Source: Escherichia phage JLBYU19. From it: a DNA stretch of 49,897 nucleotides. Positions 27,889 to 36,399 of the stretch are shown here, piece after piece. A model generated the notes under the pieces. It made no database searches, had not been told where the DNA came from, and worked only from the letters and a program-made list of their open reading frames with translations. Each line of letters begins with the position of its first letter. Position 1 is the stretch's first letter. The position numbers and the translations under genes are program-made. Location: the sequence record OK272489.1. One strand, 5' to 3'.

Positions 27889-28398
27889 ATGGCTAAAATT
27901 GGAGCAAGTTATTTTGACACTATGGCGCGTGCGCTTCCTGGTCAGGTATCCGACACGTCAGCATATAACATCGACGGCGCTTGCGTTCTTGACAAGGAAG
28001 ACGGCATCCCAATCCTGGTTGGCGTGGCTGTTAAGCTAAAAGGCGTTGACTCAATGGGTAACAAGCTGATCGACTCCATTTCCGCTGGAGGTGATGTTCC
28101 TTATGGCGTTGGCATCCGCTCTCACTTTCAAACCACGGCTGATAATGGTCGAATGGTTTATGAGGTTGGCGGCGGAATCAACGTTATGACAGAGGGCCGC
28201 GTTTGGATGATTGTCGATGATTCAGATAAGGCCAAAAAGCCATCGTATCGCGAGCCTGTAAAAATTGATGAAAACACTGGCAAGGTGAAAAGTGGTGGCG
28301 CTATCAATACCAACTGGATTTACACGGGAGATAAAACCACATTTGGAACTGGCGAAGATGTGTTGACTTTGTTTGAAGTTCAGGTTTTCCCAAGCTAA
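27889..28398 (+). CDS. capsid decoration/cement-like protein (paralog 1)
   Basis: 169 aa; AGGAG RBS; motifs YNIDG, GRVW, WIYTGD shared with next ORF; followed by terminator. Confidence 0.45.
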   Translation: MAKIGASYFDTMARALPGQVSDTSAYNIDGACVLDKEDGIPILVGVAVKLKGVDSMGNKLIDSISAGGDVPYGVGIRSHFQTTADNGRMVYEVGGGINVMTEGRVWMIVDDSDKAKKPSYREPVKIDENTGKVKSGGAINTNWIYTGDKTTFGTGEDVLTLFEVQVFPS

Positions 28399-28448: not shown

Positions 28449-29006
28449 ATGGCTAAAGATTATTCATCTGTTATGGGTCTTTCTTGCCCTGGTTGTTTGG
28501 TTGACTCTACTCGCTACAATATTGATGGAACTGGCGTTTGTGGTTCTGAGTCGATTATTGCTGGTAAGGTTGTTTTCTTCAAAGAGAGAGTAGAAGGTTA
28601 TAGCATATTTGTTGATCATAAAGAGCATGATGCGGTTGTTGCTGGCGTCGCGCTAAGGAGCAACATAACAACGACAGTTAACGAGGAAGACGGGTATTCA
28701 GACTACAAGGAAGGAGACGCCATCAACATTTTGACAAGAGGTGTTGTATGGTGTGTAACTCAAACAATTGAATCTCCTCCTGAACATGGCGATCTTGTTT
28801 ATGTTAACAATGATGGCTTTGTAGCAAAGAGTGACGGGGATGAAATCGTCGATGGCTGGATTTTTACTGGTGACTTCTACAAGTTTGATGAAACAATAAA
28901 CATAGTAGGAGTAAGGATAACGCCGCTTCATCATAGAAAATACCTTCTTACTGGTGCGATAATTGAGGCTGAAAATGGCTACATAGAGGGGAACAGAGAC
29001 GATTAA
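28449..29006 (+). CDS. capsid decoration/cement-like protein (paralog 2)
   Basis: 185 aa; AGGAG RBS; motifs YNIDG, RGVVW, WIFTGD. Confidence 0.45.
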   Translation: MAKDYSSVMGLSCPGCLVDSTRYNIDGTGVCGSESIIAGKVVFFKERVEGYSIFVDHKEHDAVVAGVALRSNITTTVNEEDGYSDYKEGDAINILTRGVVWCVTQTIESPPEHGDLVYVNNDGFVAKSDGDEIVDGWIFTGDFYKFDETINIVGVRITPLHHRKYLLTGAIIEAENGYIEGNRDD

Positions 29007-32281: not shown

Positions 32282-32944
32282 ATGCACTTGCCTAATGGTT
32301 CTCAAATTTTCATCGGCGTTAATATGGGTGAGCCAATTAGCGCGACTCAAATCAGCAATGCTGATAATCCTGTTTTTACAACCGAAAACACTCAAAGCAT
32401 CAAAAAAGGCGCTTATGTTCTTATTGAAACATCTTCTTGGGGCAAACTTGTTAGTCGAGTGCTTCGAGTTAAGGAAGTATCAGATAATGCAAGTGTTACT
32501 CTTGAGGGTGTTAGCACTAAAGATACAAACGTATTTCCAGAAGGACAGAACACAGCAACTTTCCGAGAAGTGAAATCTTGGGTAGAGGTTCCTTGCGTAC
32601 AGGATCTTGCGCAGGACGGCGGCGAGCAACAGTATTACACTTATCAGTGTTTGGCTGATGACCGGGAGCAGCAGTTGCCGACCCACAAGAGCGCGGTTTC
32701 TCTTACCTACACTTTCGCTCATGAATATGATAACCCGATTTATCCGATCTTGCGCGAGGCTGAGGAATCCGGCGACGTAACCGCTTTGCGTATGTACGTG
32801 CCGAAAGCTAAAGAGATGCGTTGCTGGGCTGGCGTATTGTCTTTTAATGACATTCCGCAAACAACTATGAACGAAATGGAAACTGTTTCCCTTTCTGTAT
32901 CTCTGAAAGGCCGATTCACGTTCTTACCTTCCGACGTTAAGTAA
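32282..32944 (+). CDS. major tail protein
   Basis: 220 aa; AAGGAGG RBS; followed by strong terminator; upstream of G/GT chaperone genes. Confidence 0.6.
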   Translation: MHLPNGSQIFIGVNMGEPISATQISNADNPVFTTENTQSIKKGAYVLIETSSWGKLVSRVLRVKEVSDNASVTLEGVSTKDTNVFPEGQNTATFREVKSWVEVPCVQDLAQDGGEQQYYTYQCLADDREQQLPTHKSAVSLTYTFAHEYDNPIYPILREAEESGDVTALRMYVPKAKEMRCWAGVLSFNDIPQTTMNEMETVSLSVSLKGRFTFLPSDVK

Positions 32945-32947
32945 AAC

Positions 32948-32970
32948 AAGGGGCGTTGCGCCCCTTTTTT
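32948..32970 (+). terminator. intrinsic terminator after major tail gene
   Basis: GGGGCG-ttg-CGCCCC hairpin + T6. Confidence 0.7.
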
Positions 32971-33043: not shown

Positions 33044-33361
33044 ATGGCAAAGATGAAACTAACGTTAGGCCCACTGCCTGATTTTAAGCTGCCTGTTTCT
33101 TTCGTGCTTCCAAATGGTGATGAGCAAGTTATTGTTTTTACCGTGCGCCACAAGAAGGCAAGCGAAATTCACGAACGATACACGGCAGAAAAGCCGATGA
33201 GCGACGTAGAAATGATCACCTTCCTTGCTTCCGGTTGGGATCTGGAAGATGAATTTAACGAGGAAAACGTTGCTAAATTGCTGGATTATTACCCGTCTGC
33301 GTCATTATCGCTGACTGGTCATTATATGAAAGCACTTGCGGGGCAGCGGGTAAAAAACTAA
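33044..33361 (+). CDS. tail assembly chaperone (gpG-like)
   Basis: 105 aa; AAGGAG RBS; slippery heptamer A_AAA_AAC sits immediately before its stop. Confidence 0.7.
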   Translation: MAKMKLTLGPLPDFKLPVSFVLPNGDEQVIVFTVRHKKASEIHERYTAEKPMSDVEMITFLASGWDLEDEFNEENVAKLLDYYPSASLSLTGHYMKALAGQRVKN

Positions 33362-33678
33362 AGCGGGCGGTTTACCTGTTTTACCTCAAGCCGCCAACTG
33401 ACGCACAATTAGAGGCCGTCGGCCTATCCCGTTCAGACTACGAAGGGGAGGAGCCGCCGGAGGTAATTTTTGATGAATCAATGTTTCAATCTTGGGATCT
33501 GTTTTGCGCTATGCAGACGCAATGGAGATCGACTAGCGGCAGTGTGTATGGGTTCGACTATAACGTTTTGCCTATGCTTTTTGACATTTACAAGATTGAG
33601 GATCGGGAGATGGCGCTAAATGATTTGCGCATCATGGAACAAAAGGCGCTAGAAATGATTCATTCAAACAAAACATAA
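33277..33678 (+). CDS. tail assembly chaperone T-domain (-1 frame, expressed as G-T fusion)
   Basis: -1 frame open from 33277, overlapping gpG-like ORF; QSWDLFCAMQTQW region typical of phage tail assembly protein T. Confidence 0.6.
   Translation: MAGLLPVCVIIADWSLYESTCGAAGKKLKRAVYLFYLKPPTDAQLEAVGLSRSDYEGEEPPEVIFDESMFQSWDLFCAMQTQWRSTSGSVYGFDYNVLPMLFDIYKIEDREMALNDLRIMEQKALEMIHSNKT
33352..33358 (+). other. -1 programmed frameshift slippery heptamer A_AAA_AAC (G to G-T)
   Basis: heptamer in frame of gpG-like ORF 3 nt before its stop; -1 frame continues open to 33678. Confidence 0.6.
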
Positions 33679-33698
33679 GCGCCGCGAGGCGCTTTTTT
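33677..33698 (+). terminator. intrinsic terminator/attenuator before tape measure gene
   Basis: AAGCGCC-gcga-GGCGCTT hairpin + T6. Confidence 0.55.
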
Positions 33699-33717: not shown

Positions 33718-36399
33718 ATGGCTGAAAAATACGCTGGCCTAACGCTAGGCGTTGACGTGTCGCAGGTCAACAATGCTGTTAAATCATTGCAGCAATTCAA
33801 GAAGGCAAACGACGACGCAAAAAAAAGCGTTAATGAATTTGTTGATTCTGAGGTTGTGGCCCGACAGCAAGCAAAACAGCTTGCCGAAGAACTGGCGCGC
33901 CAGAAAGCAGAATTTAAGAAAATCCAGGAGTCAATTGATCCCACTGCATCAAAGATGGATAAGCTGCGAAAGGCAGCGACACAGCTTGATGCGCTATGGA
34001 AAAAGGGCGTTGTTCCTGATCAGACTTTTTTTGAGCTTGGGGCAATTCTTGAGACGCAGCAAAACAAGCTGATCGCAACCAAAAAAGCGATGACAGAGGA
34101 AGGCCGCGCGGCGCTTGAGGAATCAAAGAACAAGGCGCGTGCAGCGGAAGAGGCTAAAAAATTCGTCCAGGCTTTGCGTGAGCAGGAAGAAGCAGCAGGA
34201 AAAAGCAAGTCTGAATTGCTGGAAATGAAAGCGGCACAGCTTGGAGTTAGCCAGGAGGCAGCACCTTACATCGCAAGACTGAAAGAGCAGGAAAAGCAGA
34301 TCCAGAAACTTGGGATTTCTACAGGCCAATACAAACAAGCAATGGCGCAATTGCCAATGCAGATCACAGACGTGGTGACTTCACTTGCTTCTGGTATGCC
34401 AGTTTGGTTGGTCGCAGTCCAGCAGGGTGGACAGATCAAGGATTCTTTTGGTGGTGCATCCAATGCTTTAAAAGCGTTGCTATCTTTCCTGAATCCGGCA
34501 AACGTGGCGTTTGGCTTACTTTCAGGCACGCTGGCAATTGCTGCATATAATGCCTACAAAGCACAGACAGAGCTTGAGGCAATTAAAAAAACCGTTCAGG
34601 AAACAACTGGCTTGAGTGGTGAGTTTGCCGAAAAGATTGCTATAGGAATCCAGGAGCTTTCCGACAAGACAGGCGAAAGCGCCGAAGATCTGGCAAAGGC
34701 TTACATAACAACGAAAGACGGCGCGAGCGAGGCGATTAAAAAACTGGTTGACGTTGGCATGACTTATGATGACGCAAAAAAGAAAGTCAACGAGTACAAG
34801 GGCGCGTCTAGCTTTGTCAGCTTGAATAACGAAATTGCAAACCACAAAAACAAAGTCCTTGAGTTGGGCGATTCGTGGTATGAGGTTTTGAAAGCGAAGC
34901 GTGATTACGCTTCCCCGTCCGGCGGCCTGTTAGGTAAGGAGCTTGGCTATGTTAACCCTATGCTTAAGTTTGCACTTAACACTTATGAAGACATTGGAAA
35001 GGTCGTAAAAGATGCGAATAAGGACATGGCGGAACGAGCGGAGCGAATCGACAAAGAAAACCTGGCCTTAAACAGAGTGCGCGCAGCACAGGAGGCTTTA
35101 AACAAAGCCATTGAGGATCAGAAAAATGTGGCGAGTTCGGCTGATGAAGAACTGAAAAAGCGCGCGGCTGAAAACGTGGAGTTTAGGCGCAAAGAGCTTG
35201 AGGAAATCAAGAAGCAGGAGCAGAAAAAGAAAGAGGCTAAAGGGGGAATAGTTCGCGGCCCTACTGAGCAGCTTGATAAAGAGTTGTACGTTTTAAAGGC
35301 GCAACTGGAAACTCTTAAAGAGCATCGCACTGTTAACGATGTTATTTCTCGCCAGCGTAAATCTTTATGGAGCATCGAAAAGCAGATCGAGATCCTGGAG
35401 AATGCGCAGAGCAAGCGTAAATTGACCGGAGCGGAACAGGCGCTACTAAACGAGCAAAAGGCCGTTCTTGAAATGGCAAGACAAAAAGCTGAGCTAGGGG
35501 ATCAGATTGTTTTGCAGGAGCGCAAAAACAAGCTGGAGCAAGATAGTCTTAAGTTTATCCGTGAAACTGAGGCTGCTATTGATGCGATTGGCCTTAAGCA
35601 ACTTGGCTACACTGAAAAGCAGATCGAGCGTGAGCTAGAGTTACGCAAGCTGCGCACCGACTACGAGGCGCAAGGCGGAAGCGTTAGCGACGAAGTTTTT
35701 CAGGAAATGGAGACGAAACTTAAGCTGTATTACCAGGCACAAGACGAGGCGCAAGGCAACTGGTTAGCCGGAGCAAAGAACGCATGGGAGCTATTCGCGG
35801 AAGATGCAAACAATGCCTATGGCAATGTTCAGCAGATCGCAAGCGAGGCGTTAAACGGCCTTACAAACCAATTAGCGAATTTTATCGCTACTGGCAAGGC
35901 AAACTTTAAAGACTTCTCGACGGCTATCATCAAAATGATTATCCAGATGATCACGAAAATGGTCGTCTTTAATGCGTTATCTGGCCTGATGGGTGGTCAA
36001 ACCTGGACGATGGGGAGCTTGCTTAAGAATATTGGCGGATTTGCTGGCGGTGGATACACTGGAGACGGCGGGAAGTATGAGCCAGCCGGAATTGTCCATA
36101 AAGGTGAATTTGTCATGACGAAGGAGGCGACGCAGCGTATCGGGGTAGGAAACTTGTACCGCATGATGCGAGGCTATGCTAACGGCGGCGTTGTTGGTAG
36201 TTCCGGCTATACTGGCGGTGTAGCTGTCACTGGTGGAGCACCTCAATTTAACATTGGGGGGATTGATGTTAGCATCAATAACGGCAGCGATCCGAAGGGC
36301 ATCGAAACTGGTGTTAAGATGATCTTTACTGATATGATTAAACGTTCCTGTATGCAGGGCGGCGAGGTTTACGAATTTGTTATGAGCAAGCGAGGTTGA
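33718..36399 (+). CDS. tape measure protein
   Basis: 893 aa; extensive coiled coil, Gly-rich C-terminal region; GGAGG RBS. Confidence 0.85.
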   Translation: MAEKYAGLTLGVDVSQVNNAVKSLQQFKKANDDAKKSVNEFVDSEVVARQQAKQLAEELARQKAEFKKIQESIDPTASKMDKLRKAATQLDALWKKGVVPDQTFFELGAILETQQNKLIATKKAMTEEGRAALEESKNKARAAEEAKKFVQALREQEEAAGKSKSELLEMKAAQLGVSQEAAPYIARLKEQEKQIQKLGISTGQYKQAMAQLPMQITDVVTSLASGMPVWLVAVQQGGQIKDSFGGASNALKALLSFLNPANVAFGLLSGTLAIAAYNAYKAQTELEAIKKTVQETTGLSGEFAEKIAIGIQELSDKTGESAEDLAKAYITTKDGASEAIKKLVDVGMTYDDAKKKVNEYKGASSFVSLNNEIANHKNKVLELGDSWYEVLKAKRDYASPSGGLLGKELGYVNPMLKFALNTYEDIGKVVKDANKDMAERAERIDKENLALNRVRAAQEALNKAIEDQKNVASSADEELKKRAAENVEFRRKELEEIKKQEQKKKEAKGGIVRGPTEQLDKELYVLKAQLETLKEHRTVNDVISRQRKSLWSIEKQIEILENAQSKRKLTGAEQALLNEQKAVLEMARQKAELGDQIVLQERKNKLEQDSLKFIRETEAAIDAIGLKQLGYTEKQIERELELRKLRTDYEAQGGSVSDEVFQEMETKLKLYYQAQDEAQGNWLAGAKNAWELFAEDANNAYGNVQQIASEALNGLTNQLANFIATGKANFKDFSTAIIKMIIQMITKMVVFNALSGLMGGQTWTMGSLLKNIGGFAGGGYTGDGGKYEPAGIVHKGEFVMTKEATQRIGVGNLYRMMRGYANGGVVGSSGYTGGVAVTGGAPQFNIGGIDVSINNGSDPKGIETGVKMIFTDMIKRSCMQGGEVYEFVMSKRG

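What the first reader, a model, noticed from the sequence alone, without database searches (positions are those of the whole stretch)
33277..33678. Canonical -1 frameshift site A_AAA_AAC joining tail chaperone G and T reading frames
The heptamer A AAA AAC (33352-33358) lies in frame 3 nt before the stop of the gpG-like ORF. The -1 frame is open from 33277 to 33678 and encodes a T-like domain with no good independent start. The arrangement itself is well known, but this site sits unusually close to the G stop codon.
Basis: partly seen in the sequence, partly recalled or inferred. Interest (0 to 1): 0.45.

Follow-up and report, generated by a model that had tools for sequence, protein, structure and literature searches.

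The report
Tail chaperone G/GT -1 frameshift site
This is the ordinary programmed -1 ribosomal frameshift by which long-tailed phages make a short and a long tail-assembly chaperone, here in a T1-like coliphage; the site is real and conserved but is a known kind of signal, with the small twist that it sits directly against the stop codon.

Summary
A_AAA_AAC (33352-33358) is in X_XXY_YYZ register in the 105-codon chaperone ORF (33044-33361). It directly abuts the TAA stop (33359-61). The -1 frame is open 33277-33678 and has no ATG/GTG/TTG before 33481.

The window is a Warwickvirus (Drexlerviridae, T1-like), 100% identical here to phages tonn and tunus. G is Pfam Phage_TAC_4 and the -1 part is DUF1799. 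The pair lies between the major tail and tape measure genes.

Comparative evidence supports a real -1 ribosomal frameshift:
- About 90 distinct related junctions keep a shift-prone motif within 0-3 nt of the G stop: A_AAA_AAC, A_AAG_GGT, G_GGA_AAC, or A_AAA/A_AAG tetramers.
- In two lineages a -1-frame stop lies immediately 5' of the heptamer, pinning the shift to it.
- Wobble-position variability switches from the G frame to the -1 frame right after the stop, about 120 nt before the internal ATG.

The kind is textbook (lambda G/GT). It is already annotated or mentioned for T1-like Klebsiella phages Shelby and Skenny.

Corrections:
- Tandem slippage predicts ...QRVKN-LKR, not ...VKK-LKR.
- Zero distance to the stop is short compared with lambda (15 nt) and published means (26 and 36 nt), but it is the rule in this family.
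- A_AAA_AAC is a low-efficiency motif in E. coli.
- The downstream hairpin is only weakly supported.

The parts
32282..32944 (+). Major tail (tube) protein gene, upstream neighbour
   Evidence: Pfam Phage_tail_3 3e-62; phrog_584 major tail protein
33044..33361 (+). G: tail assembly chaperone ORF, 105 aa, zero-frame product ending ...AGQRVKN*
   Evidence: Pfam Phage_TAC_4 5e-31, 107.9 bits against a cut-off of 21.1; matches positions 1-107 of the 213-position profile phrog_17368
33277..33357 (+). Stretch where the -1 frame is open upstream of the slip site but not used as coding
   Evidence: In relatives the length of this open stretch varies from 7 to 208 nt. Wobble periodicity here follows the G frame.
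33352..33358 (+). Slippery heptamer A_AAA_AAC: P-site codon AAA (Lys, 33353-55), A-site codon AAC (Asn, 33356-58)
   Evidence: Same position in 67 of about 87 distinct related junctions, with A_AAG_GGT or G_GGA_AAC substituted in others. The first A is the wobble base of GTA/GCA/GAA and is invariant in 61 sequences although the amino acid varies. All three codon positions are nearly invariant across -9..+3.
33359..33361 (+). G stop codon TAA, directly abutting the heptamer; its first two bases form part of the first -1 codon CTA (Leu)
   Evidence: TAA or TGA at this place in every related junction. The resulting Leu is invariant in the protein alignment (L106).
33358..33678 (+). T part: -1 frame segment translated after the shift (106 codons, LKRAVYLFY...HSNKT*). 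Fusion GT = 33044-33358 + 33358-33678 = 211 aa.
   Evidence: Pfam DUF1799 1.5e-12, with the match starting at residue 23, upstream of the internal ATG. Matches positions 109-211 of phrog_17368. Coding periodicity is in the -1 frame from +3 after the stop onward.
33366..33395 (+). Candidate stimulatory hairpin: 8-bp stem GGCGGUUU/AAGCCGCC, 14-nt loop, 7 nt after the heptamer. Weakly supported.
   Evidence: z -1.76 against dinucleotide shuffles. (-13.2 kcal/mol; z -1.35, p about 0.08 against synonymous recoding). Uses Arg CGG, the rarest Arg codon in the structural genes sampled (9 of 188). Much stronger in some relatives and absent in others. Covariation is not specific.
33481..33483 (+). Internal ATG that several public annotations use to call a 65-aa 'gene'; most likely just Met-42 of the T part
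   Evidence: The Met is not conserved in relatives. Conserved -1-frame coding starts about 120 nt upstream.
33718..36399 (+). Tape measure protein gene, downstream neighbour
   Evidence: Pfam TMP_2 1.5e-35 and Tape_meas_lam_C 1.9e-22; phrog_24

Best explanation
A programmed -1 ribosomal frameshift makes two tail-assembly chaperones from one mRNA. Most ribosomes translate G (33044-33361, 105 aa) and terminate at TAA 33359-61. A small fraction slip back one nucleotide on A_AAA_AAC (33352-33358), with tRNA-Lys on AAA in the P site and tRNA-Asn on AAC in the A site. They then read CTA (33358-60) as Leu and continue to 33678, producing a 211-aa G-T fusion (...AGQRVKN-LKRAVYLFY...).

By analogy with lambda, G and the G part of GT would coat the tape measure protein. 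The T part (DUF1799) would recruit the major tail protein. A large excess of G over GT would be set by the intrinsically weak heptamer.

Shown here: the anatomy, the register, the lack of a start codon, the conservation of motif and position, and -1-frame coding starting at the junction. Inferred: that slippage is ribosomal and tandem, its low efficiency, and the protein functions. The abutting stop codon and the downstream hairpin may modulate efficiency, but that is not shown.
For: (1) Anatomy and register.
(2) Family and synteny: Phage_tail_3, then Phage_TAC_4, then DUF1799, then TMP_2/Tape_meas_lam_C. The 213-position profile phrog_17368 matches the G part at positions 1-107 and the T part at 109-211, consistent with one continuous 213-residue product.
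(3) tblastn of the fusion finds both halves in two frames in 1095 of 1148 phage records.
(4) Across about 90 distinct junctions a shift-prone motif ends 0-3 nt before the G stop. These are A_AAA_AAC (Tempevirinae, T1 itself, Braunvirinae, Dhillonvirus, PHB10), A_AAG_GGT (Jahat), G_GGA_AAC (Pseudomonas, Ralstonia, Xanthomonas and Stenotrophomonas phages at 27-30% protein identity), and A_AAA or A_AAG tetramers (Webervirus, Rogunavirinae). Three different heptamers in the same register argue for tRNA re-pairing.
(5) In Dhillonvirus and Xanthomonas phage OP1 the -1 frame is closed by TGA immediately 5' of the heptamer, leaving a 7-nt window for the shift.
(6) The most variable codon position switches from the G frame (1.6-1.7 bits) to the -1 frame (1.2-1.5 bits) directly after the stop. 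Positions -9..+3 are nearly invariant in all three phases.
(7) The invariant wobble A of the codon preceding AAA shows nucleotide-level selection.
(8) A_AAA_AAC is a proven, low-efficiency -1 site in E. coli (IS1) (PMC4066793). Lambda needs about 30:1 G:GT (PMC5009743).
(9) A homologous joined 'frameshift product' CDS is annotated in Klebsiella phage Shelby, and the frameshift is mentioned for phage Skenny (PMC6763657).
Against: There is no experimental evidence for this phage or, as far as I found, for any member of the TAC_4/DUF1799 family: no fusion protein has been demonstrated. A_AAA_AAC is a poor shifter in E. coli (PMC4066793), so the yield without stimulators may be well below 1%. The downstream hairpin is only marginal in the window (p about 0.08 against synonymous recoding), is absent in some relatives, and lacks specific covariation. 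No conserved upstream SD-like element exists: wobble positions at -30..-9 are fully variable. G and T are not detectable sequence homologues of lambda G and T, so the protein roles are by analogy only. The AlphaFold single-sequence model was unusable (pLDDT 37).
Confidence: 0.9

Rival explanations
1. The fusion arises by transcriptional slippage. RNA polymerase adds one A in the A6 run, giving mRNAs in which T is in frame with G (junction ...VKK-LKR).
For: The site contains a six-A run. The run is indel-prone in sequencing: four public relatives carry A5.
Against: Homologous sites with G_GGA_AAC and A_AAG_GGT have no homopolymer long enough, yet keep the same register and position. To my knowledge, known productive slippage in bacteria uses runs of about 8-9 or more A/T; this rests on my own knowledge and was not checked here. 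Conservation follows the X_XXY_YYZ pattern, including the final C, rather than run length.
Confidence: 0.04
2. G and T are separate proteins. T is translated on its own from ATG 33481 (65 aa), as several GenBank and RefSeq records annotate, or by reinitiation after the G stop.
For: Gene callers find this ORF, and many public records list it.
Against: The 41 codons upstream of the ATG are under coding selection in the -1 frame from the junction onward. They carry invariant residues L106, R108, A109, V110, Y111, L112, T119, D120, G127, R130-E134 in Drexlerviridae. The DUF1799 match starts at residue 23 of the -1 part. The Met is not conserved, e.g. FDEQTAQSW in Shelby. The nearest SD-like GGAGGT is 16 nt upstream. 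No ATG/GTG/TTG exists in that frame between 33277 and 33481.
Confidence: 0.03
3. The shift is still ribosomal and -1 but is not classical tandem slippage. Either P-site tRNA-Lys slips on A_AAA before Asn-tRNA arrives (giving VKK-L), or peptidyl-tRNA-Asn slips while the slowly decoded stop codon occupies the A site (a 'shifty stop', giving VKN-L).
For: The stop abuts or nearly abuts the motif in all lineages. Webervirus, Rogunavirinae and others retain only an A_AAA/A_AAG tetramer followed by one sense codon and the stop, which fits single-tRNA slippage. 3' stop codons are known to stimulate shifts in other systems, and a minor alternative product is reported for HIV (PMC5009743).
Against: The conserved full heptamer pattern, with three different heptamers in register, is what tandem re-pairing predicts. 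Conservation of the stop is also explained simply by selection against a 16-codon extension of abundant G and by both flanking peptides being conserved. This rival is a sub-variant of the best explanation rather than a separate phenomenon.
Confidence: 0.25

Closest known systems
Phage lambda G/GT tail assembly chaperone -1 frameshift (Levin, Hendrix & Casjens 1993; Xu, Hendrix & Duda 2004, 2013, 2014, as cited in PMC5009743)
   Same: Two overlapping ORFs lie between the major tail and tape measure genes. The second is in the -1 frame without its own start. An X_XXY_YYZ heptamer sits near the 3' end of G. A low-level shift gives a minor fusion protein.
   Different: Lambda uses G_GGA_AAG, ending 15 nt before the G stop. 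Here A_AAA_AAC abuts the stop. The protein families differ: Phage_TAC_2 + Phage_tail_T in lambda against Phage_TAC_4 + DUF1799 here. A_AAA_AAC is a far weaker shifter in E. coli than X_XXA_AAG motifs (PMC4066793).
Tail assembly chaperone frameshift annotated in T1-like Klebsiella phages (Shelby MK931445 joined CDS; Skenny, PMC6763657)
   Same: Homologous proteins (about 48% identity to the window fusion), same family Drexlerviridae, same gene order, and the G stop at the same alignment position.
   Different: Webervirus has GCA AAA GTY TAA. That is an A_AAA tetramer plus one sense codon, not a full heptamer. The window's own genus (Warwickvirus: tonn, tunus, JLBYU16) is deposited without the joined CDS.
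IS1 InsAB' transposase -1 frameshift at A_AAA_AAC
   Same: Identical heptamer, decoded by the same host (E. coli). Low efficiency is used to keep the fusion product scarce, and there is no established stimulator (PMC4066793).
   Different: It is a transposase, not a phage chaperone. I did not verify the distance to the insA stop. It is unrelated in sequence and function.
E. coli dnaX gamma/tau -1 frameshift (A_AAA_AAG with upstream SD-like element and downstream hairpin)
   Same: An A-rich heptamer decoded by the single E. coli tRNA-Lys. A hairpin at about the right spacing is possible (7 nt).
   Different: dnaX is high-efficiency and has two strong stimulators. Here the final base is C, no conserved SD-like element exists, and the hairpin is weak and lineage-specific. 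The dnaX shift truncates the protein, whereas here it extends it.
Haloarchaeal virus HCTV-2 g-t frameshift
   Same: The same A_AAA_AAC heptamer is proposed for a G-T type frameshift. HCTV-1 uses G_GGA_AAC, which distant relatives of this locus also use (PMC5009743).
   Different: Archaeal host and translation apparatus. No sequence relationship was tested.

Membership tests
G/GT-type tail assembly chaperone programmed frameshift (Xu et al. 2004 class) | Two adjacent or overlapping ORFs located between the major tail protein gene and the tape measure protein gene | tested here: met
   32282-32944 Phage_tail_3; 33044-33361 G; 33277-33678 -1 ORF; 33718-36399 TMP_2 + Tape_meas_lam_C
G/GT-type tail assembly chaperone programmed frameshift (Xu et al. 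2004 class) | The second ORF is in an alternative frame, overlaps the end of the first, and lacks its own start codon or RBS for its conserved N-terminal part | tested here: met
   -1 frame open from 33277; first ATG/GTG/TTG at 33481; coding periodicity in the -1 frame from 33362
G/GT-type tail assembly chaperone programmed frameshift (Xu et al. 2004 class) | Slippery sequence in the overlap, in the register that allows tRNA re-pairing | tested here: met
   A_AAA_AAC at 33352-58 is the only in-frame X_XXY_YYZ in the overlap
G/GT-type tail assembly chaperone programmed frameshift (Xu et al. 2004 class) | The arrangement is conserved among relatives despite sequence divergence | tested here: met
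   1095 of 1148 phage records have both halves in two frames. Motif and position are conserved in about 90 distinct junctions, down to 27% protein identity.
G/GT-type tail assembly chaperone programmed frameshift (Xu et al. 2004 class) | Two proteins, G and the G-T fusion, are actually made at a fixed ratio, and both are needed for tail assembly | not testable with these tools
   Needs lysate proteomics, a reporter assay and phage genetics
G/GT-type tail assembly chaperone programmed frameshift (Xu et al. 2004 class) | G binds the tape measure protein; the T domain binds the major tail protein; neither is in the virion | not testable with these tools
   Inferred from lambda only (PMC5009743). 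The AF2 model was unusable and no solved homologue was found.
Lambda G (Phage_TAC_2 / TIGR01674) and lambda T (Phage_tail_T / TIGR01715) sequence families | Significant match to the family profiles | tested here: not met
   The window proteins hit Phage_TAC_4 and DUF1799 only, with no NCBIfam hit. Lambda G and T hit Phage_TAC_2/TIGR01674 and Phage_tail_T/TIGR01715.
Pfam Phage_TAC_4 (PF08748) and DUF1799 (PF08809) | Score above the curated gathering threshold | tested here: met
   107.9 bits against 21.1; 48.0 bits against 26
Stimulated -1 PRF of the dnaX/IS3 type (heptamer plus downstream structure and/or upstream SD) | Conserved downstream hairpin or pseudoknot 5-9 nt after the heptamer, supported by covariation or synonymous constraint | tested here: inconclusive
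   An 8-bp stem lies 7 nt downstream at -13.2 kcal/mol, p about 0.08 against synonymous recoding. It is strong in some relatives (z -4 to -5) and absent in Braunvirinae and Rogunavirinae. The covariation score of 0.118 is exceeded by the slide -1 control at 0.151.
Stimulated -1 PRF of the dnaX/IS3 type (heptamer plus downstream structure and/or upstream SD) | Conserved SD-like element about 10-14 nt upstream of the heptamer | tested here: not met
   Wobble positions at -30..-9 are maximally variable (1.74 bits). GGGG in the window is replaced by GGT, GGA or GGC in relatives.
Transcriptional slippage | Long homopolymer run conserved as a run | tested here: not met
   The run is only A6. Relatives use G_GGA_AAC or A_AAG_GGT at the same place.

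The most novel reading that the evidence does not exclude
In the Phage_TAC_4/DUF1799 chaperone family the zero-frame stop codon is an integral, selected part of the frameshift signal. On this reading, intrinsically weak heptamers (A_AAA_AAC, G_GGA_AAC) or bare A_AAR tetramers are made just productive enough by slow decoding of the immediately following UAA/UGA, a -1 'shifty stop'. That would tie the G:GT ratio to release-factor activity rather than to an RNA structure. The evidence does not exclude this. The stop is within 0-3 nt of the motif in every lineage examined, down to 27% identity. No conserved SD exists, and the hairpin is dispensable in whole subfamilies.
Probability: 0.25. Interest if true: 0.45.

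Novelty: already known. Interest (0 to 1): 0.2.

Why it matters
The main value is for annotation. The window's genus and many other Drexlerviridae records list G plus a truncated 65-aa 'gene', or name both 'tail length tape measure protein', instead of one joined 211-aa frameshift product. The comparative data here fix the junction to one codon.

There is a secondary point. This chaperone family keeps low-efficiency slip motifs jammed against the stop codon across hosts from E. coli to Ralstonia. That makes it a convenient natural series for testing whether a 3' stop codon contributes to -1 frameshifting in bacteria. It would also show how a low G:GT ratio is set without strong RNA stimulators.

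Tried and rejected
(1) Heptamer enrichment in the window: none (23 against 21.4 expected), so the motif alone carries no weight.

(2) Downstream hairpin as a conserved stimulator. The thermodynamic test against synonymous recoding is marginal for the window (p about 0.08) and heterogeneous among relatives. That control used the window's codon usage for all phages, which is a poor fit for the GC-rich Pseudomonas and Ralstonia phages. The covariation test is not specific: the slid control scores higher. Left as inconclusive.

(3) Upstream SD-like stimulator: rejected, because synonymous positions there vary freely.

(4) The search for related loci with the 9-sequence distant alignment A1 failed for lack of a conserved stretch. 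It was repeated with the Drexlerviridae-only alignment A2.

(5) The search for homologous proteins with the fusion returned only three T-part ORFs of 123-136 aa, which was of no use for alignment depth or names.

(6) The AlphaFold2 single-sequence model of GT had pLDDT 37. It was unusable, so no fold search was run.

(7) A profile search of solved structures gave only chance hits with E >= 0.09.

(8) Xu et al. 2013 (PMC3762263) is not held. The lambda distance was therefore measured directly from NC_001416.

(9) Rfam and tRNA scans of the whole window found nothing.

Full report
**What is in the sequence**

The ORF 33044-33361 (105 aa) ends ...CAG CGG GTA AAA AAC TAA. The heptamer A_AAA_AAC therefore occupies 33352-33358 in the X_XXY_YYZ register. 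AAA (Lys) and AAC (Asn) are the last two sense codons, and the TAA stop (33359-61) follows with no nucleotide in between.

The -1 frame has a TAA at 33274-76 and is then open to the TAA at 33676-78. The first ATG/GTG/TTG in that frame is ATG 33481. The only SD-like sequence nearby, GGAGGT at 33459-64, lies 16 nt upstream of that ATG.

The heptamer as a word is not enriched in the window: 23 copies against 21.4 expected. In-frame X_XXY_YYZ heptamers occur at 0.43% of codon positions. One somewhere in the 27-codon overlap would arise by chance about one time in nine. G is, however, the only one of 191 ORFs of >=60 aa whose stop is abutted by such a heptamer. The case has to rest on context and conservation.

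**Identity and context**

The 901 bases around the site are 100% identical to Escherichia phages tonn, tunus and others of the genus Warwickvirus (Drexlerviridae, Tempevirinae), which are T1-like siphophages.

The gene order is as follows:
- major tail protein (Pfam Phage_tail_3, 3e-62);
- G (Phage_TAC_4, 5e-31);
- the -1 ORF (DUF1799, 1.5e-12, with the match beginning at residue 23 of the -1 part, upstream of the internal ATG);
- tape measure protein (TMP_2 and Tape_meas_lam_C).

The 213-position PHROG profile phrog_17368 matches the G part at positions 1-107 and the -1 part at positions 109-211, consistent with one continuous 213-residue product.

Most records of this genus annotate only G, or G plus a 65-aa ORF from the internal ATG, and give no joined CDS. 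Klebsiella phage Shelby (Webervirus, same family) carries a joined CDS labelled 'tail assembly chaperone frameshift product'. The announcement of the T1-like phage Skenny states that the chaperones contain a frameshift analogous to lambda G/GT (PMC6763657).

**Comparative test of the frameshift**

A tblastn of the conceptual fusion finds 1148 phage records. In 1095 of them, both halves are present as two pieces in different frames. I fetched 23 annotated loci and 80 viral contigs and located the G stop in each.

Among about 90 distinct junctions:
- 67 have [GTA/GCA/GAA] AAA AAC followed directly by TAA or TGA. Phage T1 itself is in this group (L065, GCA AAA AAC TAA).
- Phage Jahat has A_AAG_GGT + TAA.
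- Pseudomonas, Ralstonia, Xanthomonas and Stenotrophomonas phages, at 27-30% protein identity, have G_GGA_AAC + TAA/TGA.
- Webervirus, Rogunavirinae and two Klebsiella phages have GCA AAA GTY, GCA AAG GTC, or CAA AAG CAC/CCT followed by the stop. These are A_AAA/A_AAG tetramers, a single-tRNA-Lys motif that is shift-prone in E. coli (PMC4066793; PMC5009743).

So three different canonical heptamers occupy the same register at the same place, which is what tRNA re-pairing predicts. In Dhillonvirus phages and in Xanthomonas phage OP1, a -1-frame TGA lies immediately 5' of the heptamer. The only place where a ribosome can change frame and escape both stops is then the 7-nt motif.

In a 61-sequence alignment, the A at heptamer position 1 is invariant although the encoded residue varies among Val, Ala and Glu. 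That A is the wobble base of the preceding codon.

I measured column entropy by codon phase in 80 distinct Drexlerviridae junctions:
- Upstream, the most variable phase is the G-frame third position (1.6-1.7 bits).
- From +3 after the stop onward, it is the -1-frame third position (1.2-1.5 bits).
- Across -9..+3, all three phases are nearly invariant (0.15-0.48 bits).

The -1 frame is thus read as protein from the junction on, about 120 nt before the internal ATG. The slip site itself is under nucleotide-level constraint.

The first -1 codon overlaps the stop ([C/T]T[A/G]). This explains the invariant Leu at the junction in the protein alignment (L106). The internal Met is not conserved.

**Mechanism**

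The best-supported reading is classical -1 ribosomal slippage on A_AAA_AAC. The products would be G (105 aa) and a 211-aa G-T fusion. The window encodes no tRNAs, so host tRNA-Lys and tRNA-Asn do the decoding.

Tandem slippage incorporates the zero-frame A-site residue, so the junction should read ...QRVKN-LKRAVY.

[quoted passage not shown] They are nevertheless used for programmed shifts in IS elements, with IS1 a proven case that has no established stimulator (PMC4066793). A weak motif fits a chaperone pair that in lambda works at about 30:1 (PMC5009743).

**Stimulators**

No upstream SD-like element is conserved.

Seven nucleotides after the heptamer, an 8-bp stem can form (33366-73 with 33388-95). 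It uses Arg CGG, the rarest Arg codon in the structural genes sampled (9 of 188). Its stability is only marginally better than synonymous recodings (z -1.35, p about 0.08).

Equivalent hairpins are very significant in some relatives (z -4 to -5) and absent in Braunvirinae and Rogunavirinae. The covariation score is beaten by a slid control. I regard the hairpin as a possible, lineage-specific modulator and not as a defining part of the signal.

**Closeness to the stop**

Lambda's G_GGA_AAG ends 15 nt before the G stop. The PRFect paper reports mean distances of 26 nt (SEA-PHAGES) and 36 nt (the Xu 2004 set) (PMC10885494).

It is not a peculiarity of this phage, though. It is the rule throughout the TAC_4/DUF1799 family.

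Two explanations remain open:
- Simple constraint. Both the G C-terminus (AGQRVKN) and the T N-terminus (LKRAVYL) are conserved, and loss of the stop would add 16 residues to abundant G.
- A functional contribution of the stop (a 'shifty stop'), for which precedents exist in other systems (PMC5009743).

Sequence analysis cannot separate these two.

**Rivals**

Transcriptional slippage is unlikely. The run is only six A's, and relatives use motifs without a run.

Independent translation of T from ATG 33481 is contradicted by coding constraint upstream, the extent of the Pfam match, the non-conserved Met and the poor SD spacing.

**Comparison and novelty**

Functionally and architecturally, this is a member of the lambda G/GT class. 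By sequence it belongs to different Pfam families than lambda G and T. No solved homologue exists, and my single-sequence model was useless. The roles 'G binds tape measure, T binds tube protein' are therefore by analogy.

The phenomenon is textbook and has already been annotated or mentioned for T1-like phages. I rate it as already known, with low interest. The useful residue is a precise junction for correcting many database records, plus a conserved weak-motif-plus-stop arrangement that could be tested experimentally.

Noticed in passing
window 32948-32966 and 33677-33694 (+ strand): Two intrinsic-terminator-like hairpins with T runs bracket the G/T unit. One lies just after the major tail gene stop. 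The other overlaps the T stop, upstream of the tape measure start. The Shelby record annotates a terminator at the equivalent place after T. They may set the expression steps major tail protein > G/GT > tape measure protein.
   Followed up: partly
L021:1305, L056:1309 (Shigella phage 2019SD1, MT360681), L057:1306, L061:1305: Four public relatives have GTAAAAACTAA (A5) instead of A6 at the slip site. This puts T in the +1/-2 frame relative to G and extends G by about 17 codons. The likely cause is homopolymer sequencing error, but real variants were not excluded.
   Followed up: partly
window 33481-33678; public records OK272471, OR912983, NC_049815, NC_049816 and others: Public annotations of this genus call a 65-aa ORF from the internal ATG, or omit T altogether. 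They name G and T 'tail length tape measure protein', 'TfmA' or 'hypothetical protein', and no joined frameshift CDS is given.
   Followed up: yes
G stop position in about 90 related junctions (L001-L104): The stop that abuts the slip motif is always TAA or TGA and never TAG, although TAG would also keep Leu (CTA) in the -1 frame. Significance was not assessed because the sequences are phylogenetically related.
   Followed up: no
window 33459-33619: A well-spaced GGAGGT (33459-64) precedes ATG 33473 in the G frame and opens a 48-aa Cys-rich ORF (listed as 33470-33619). The wobble periodicity there follows the T frame, so this is probably a gene-caller trap. The GGAGG encodes the conserved PPEV of T.
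   Followed up: partly
window 27889-28398 and 28449-29006: Two adjacent ORFs of 169 and 185 aa look like paralogues. They have similar N-terminal stretches (..S/T.YNIDG..) and lie upstream of the likely major capsid gene. They were not examined.
   Followed up: no
whole window: There are no tRNA genes and no Rfam family at gathering threshold in the 49.9-kb window.
   Followed up: yes
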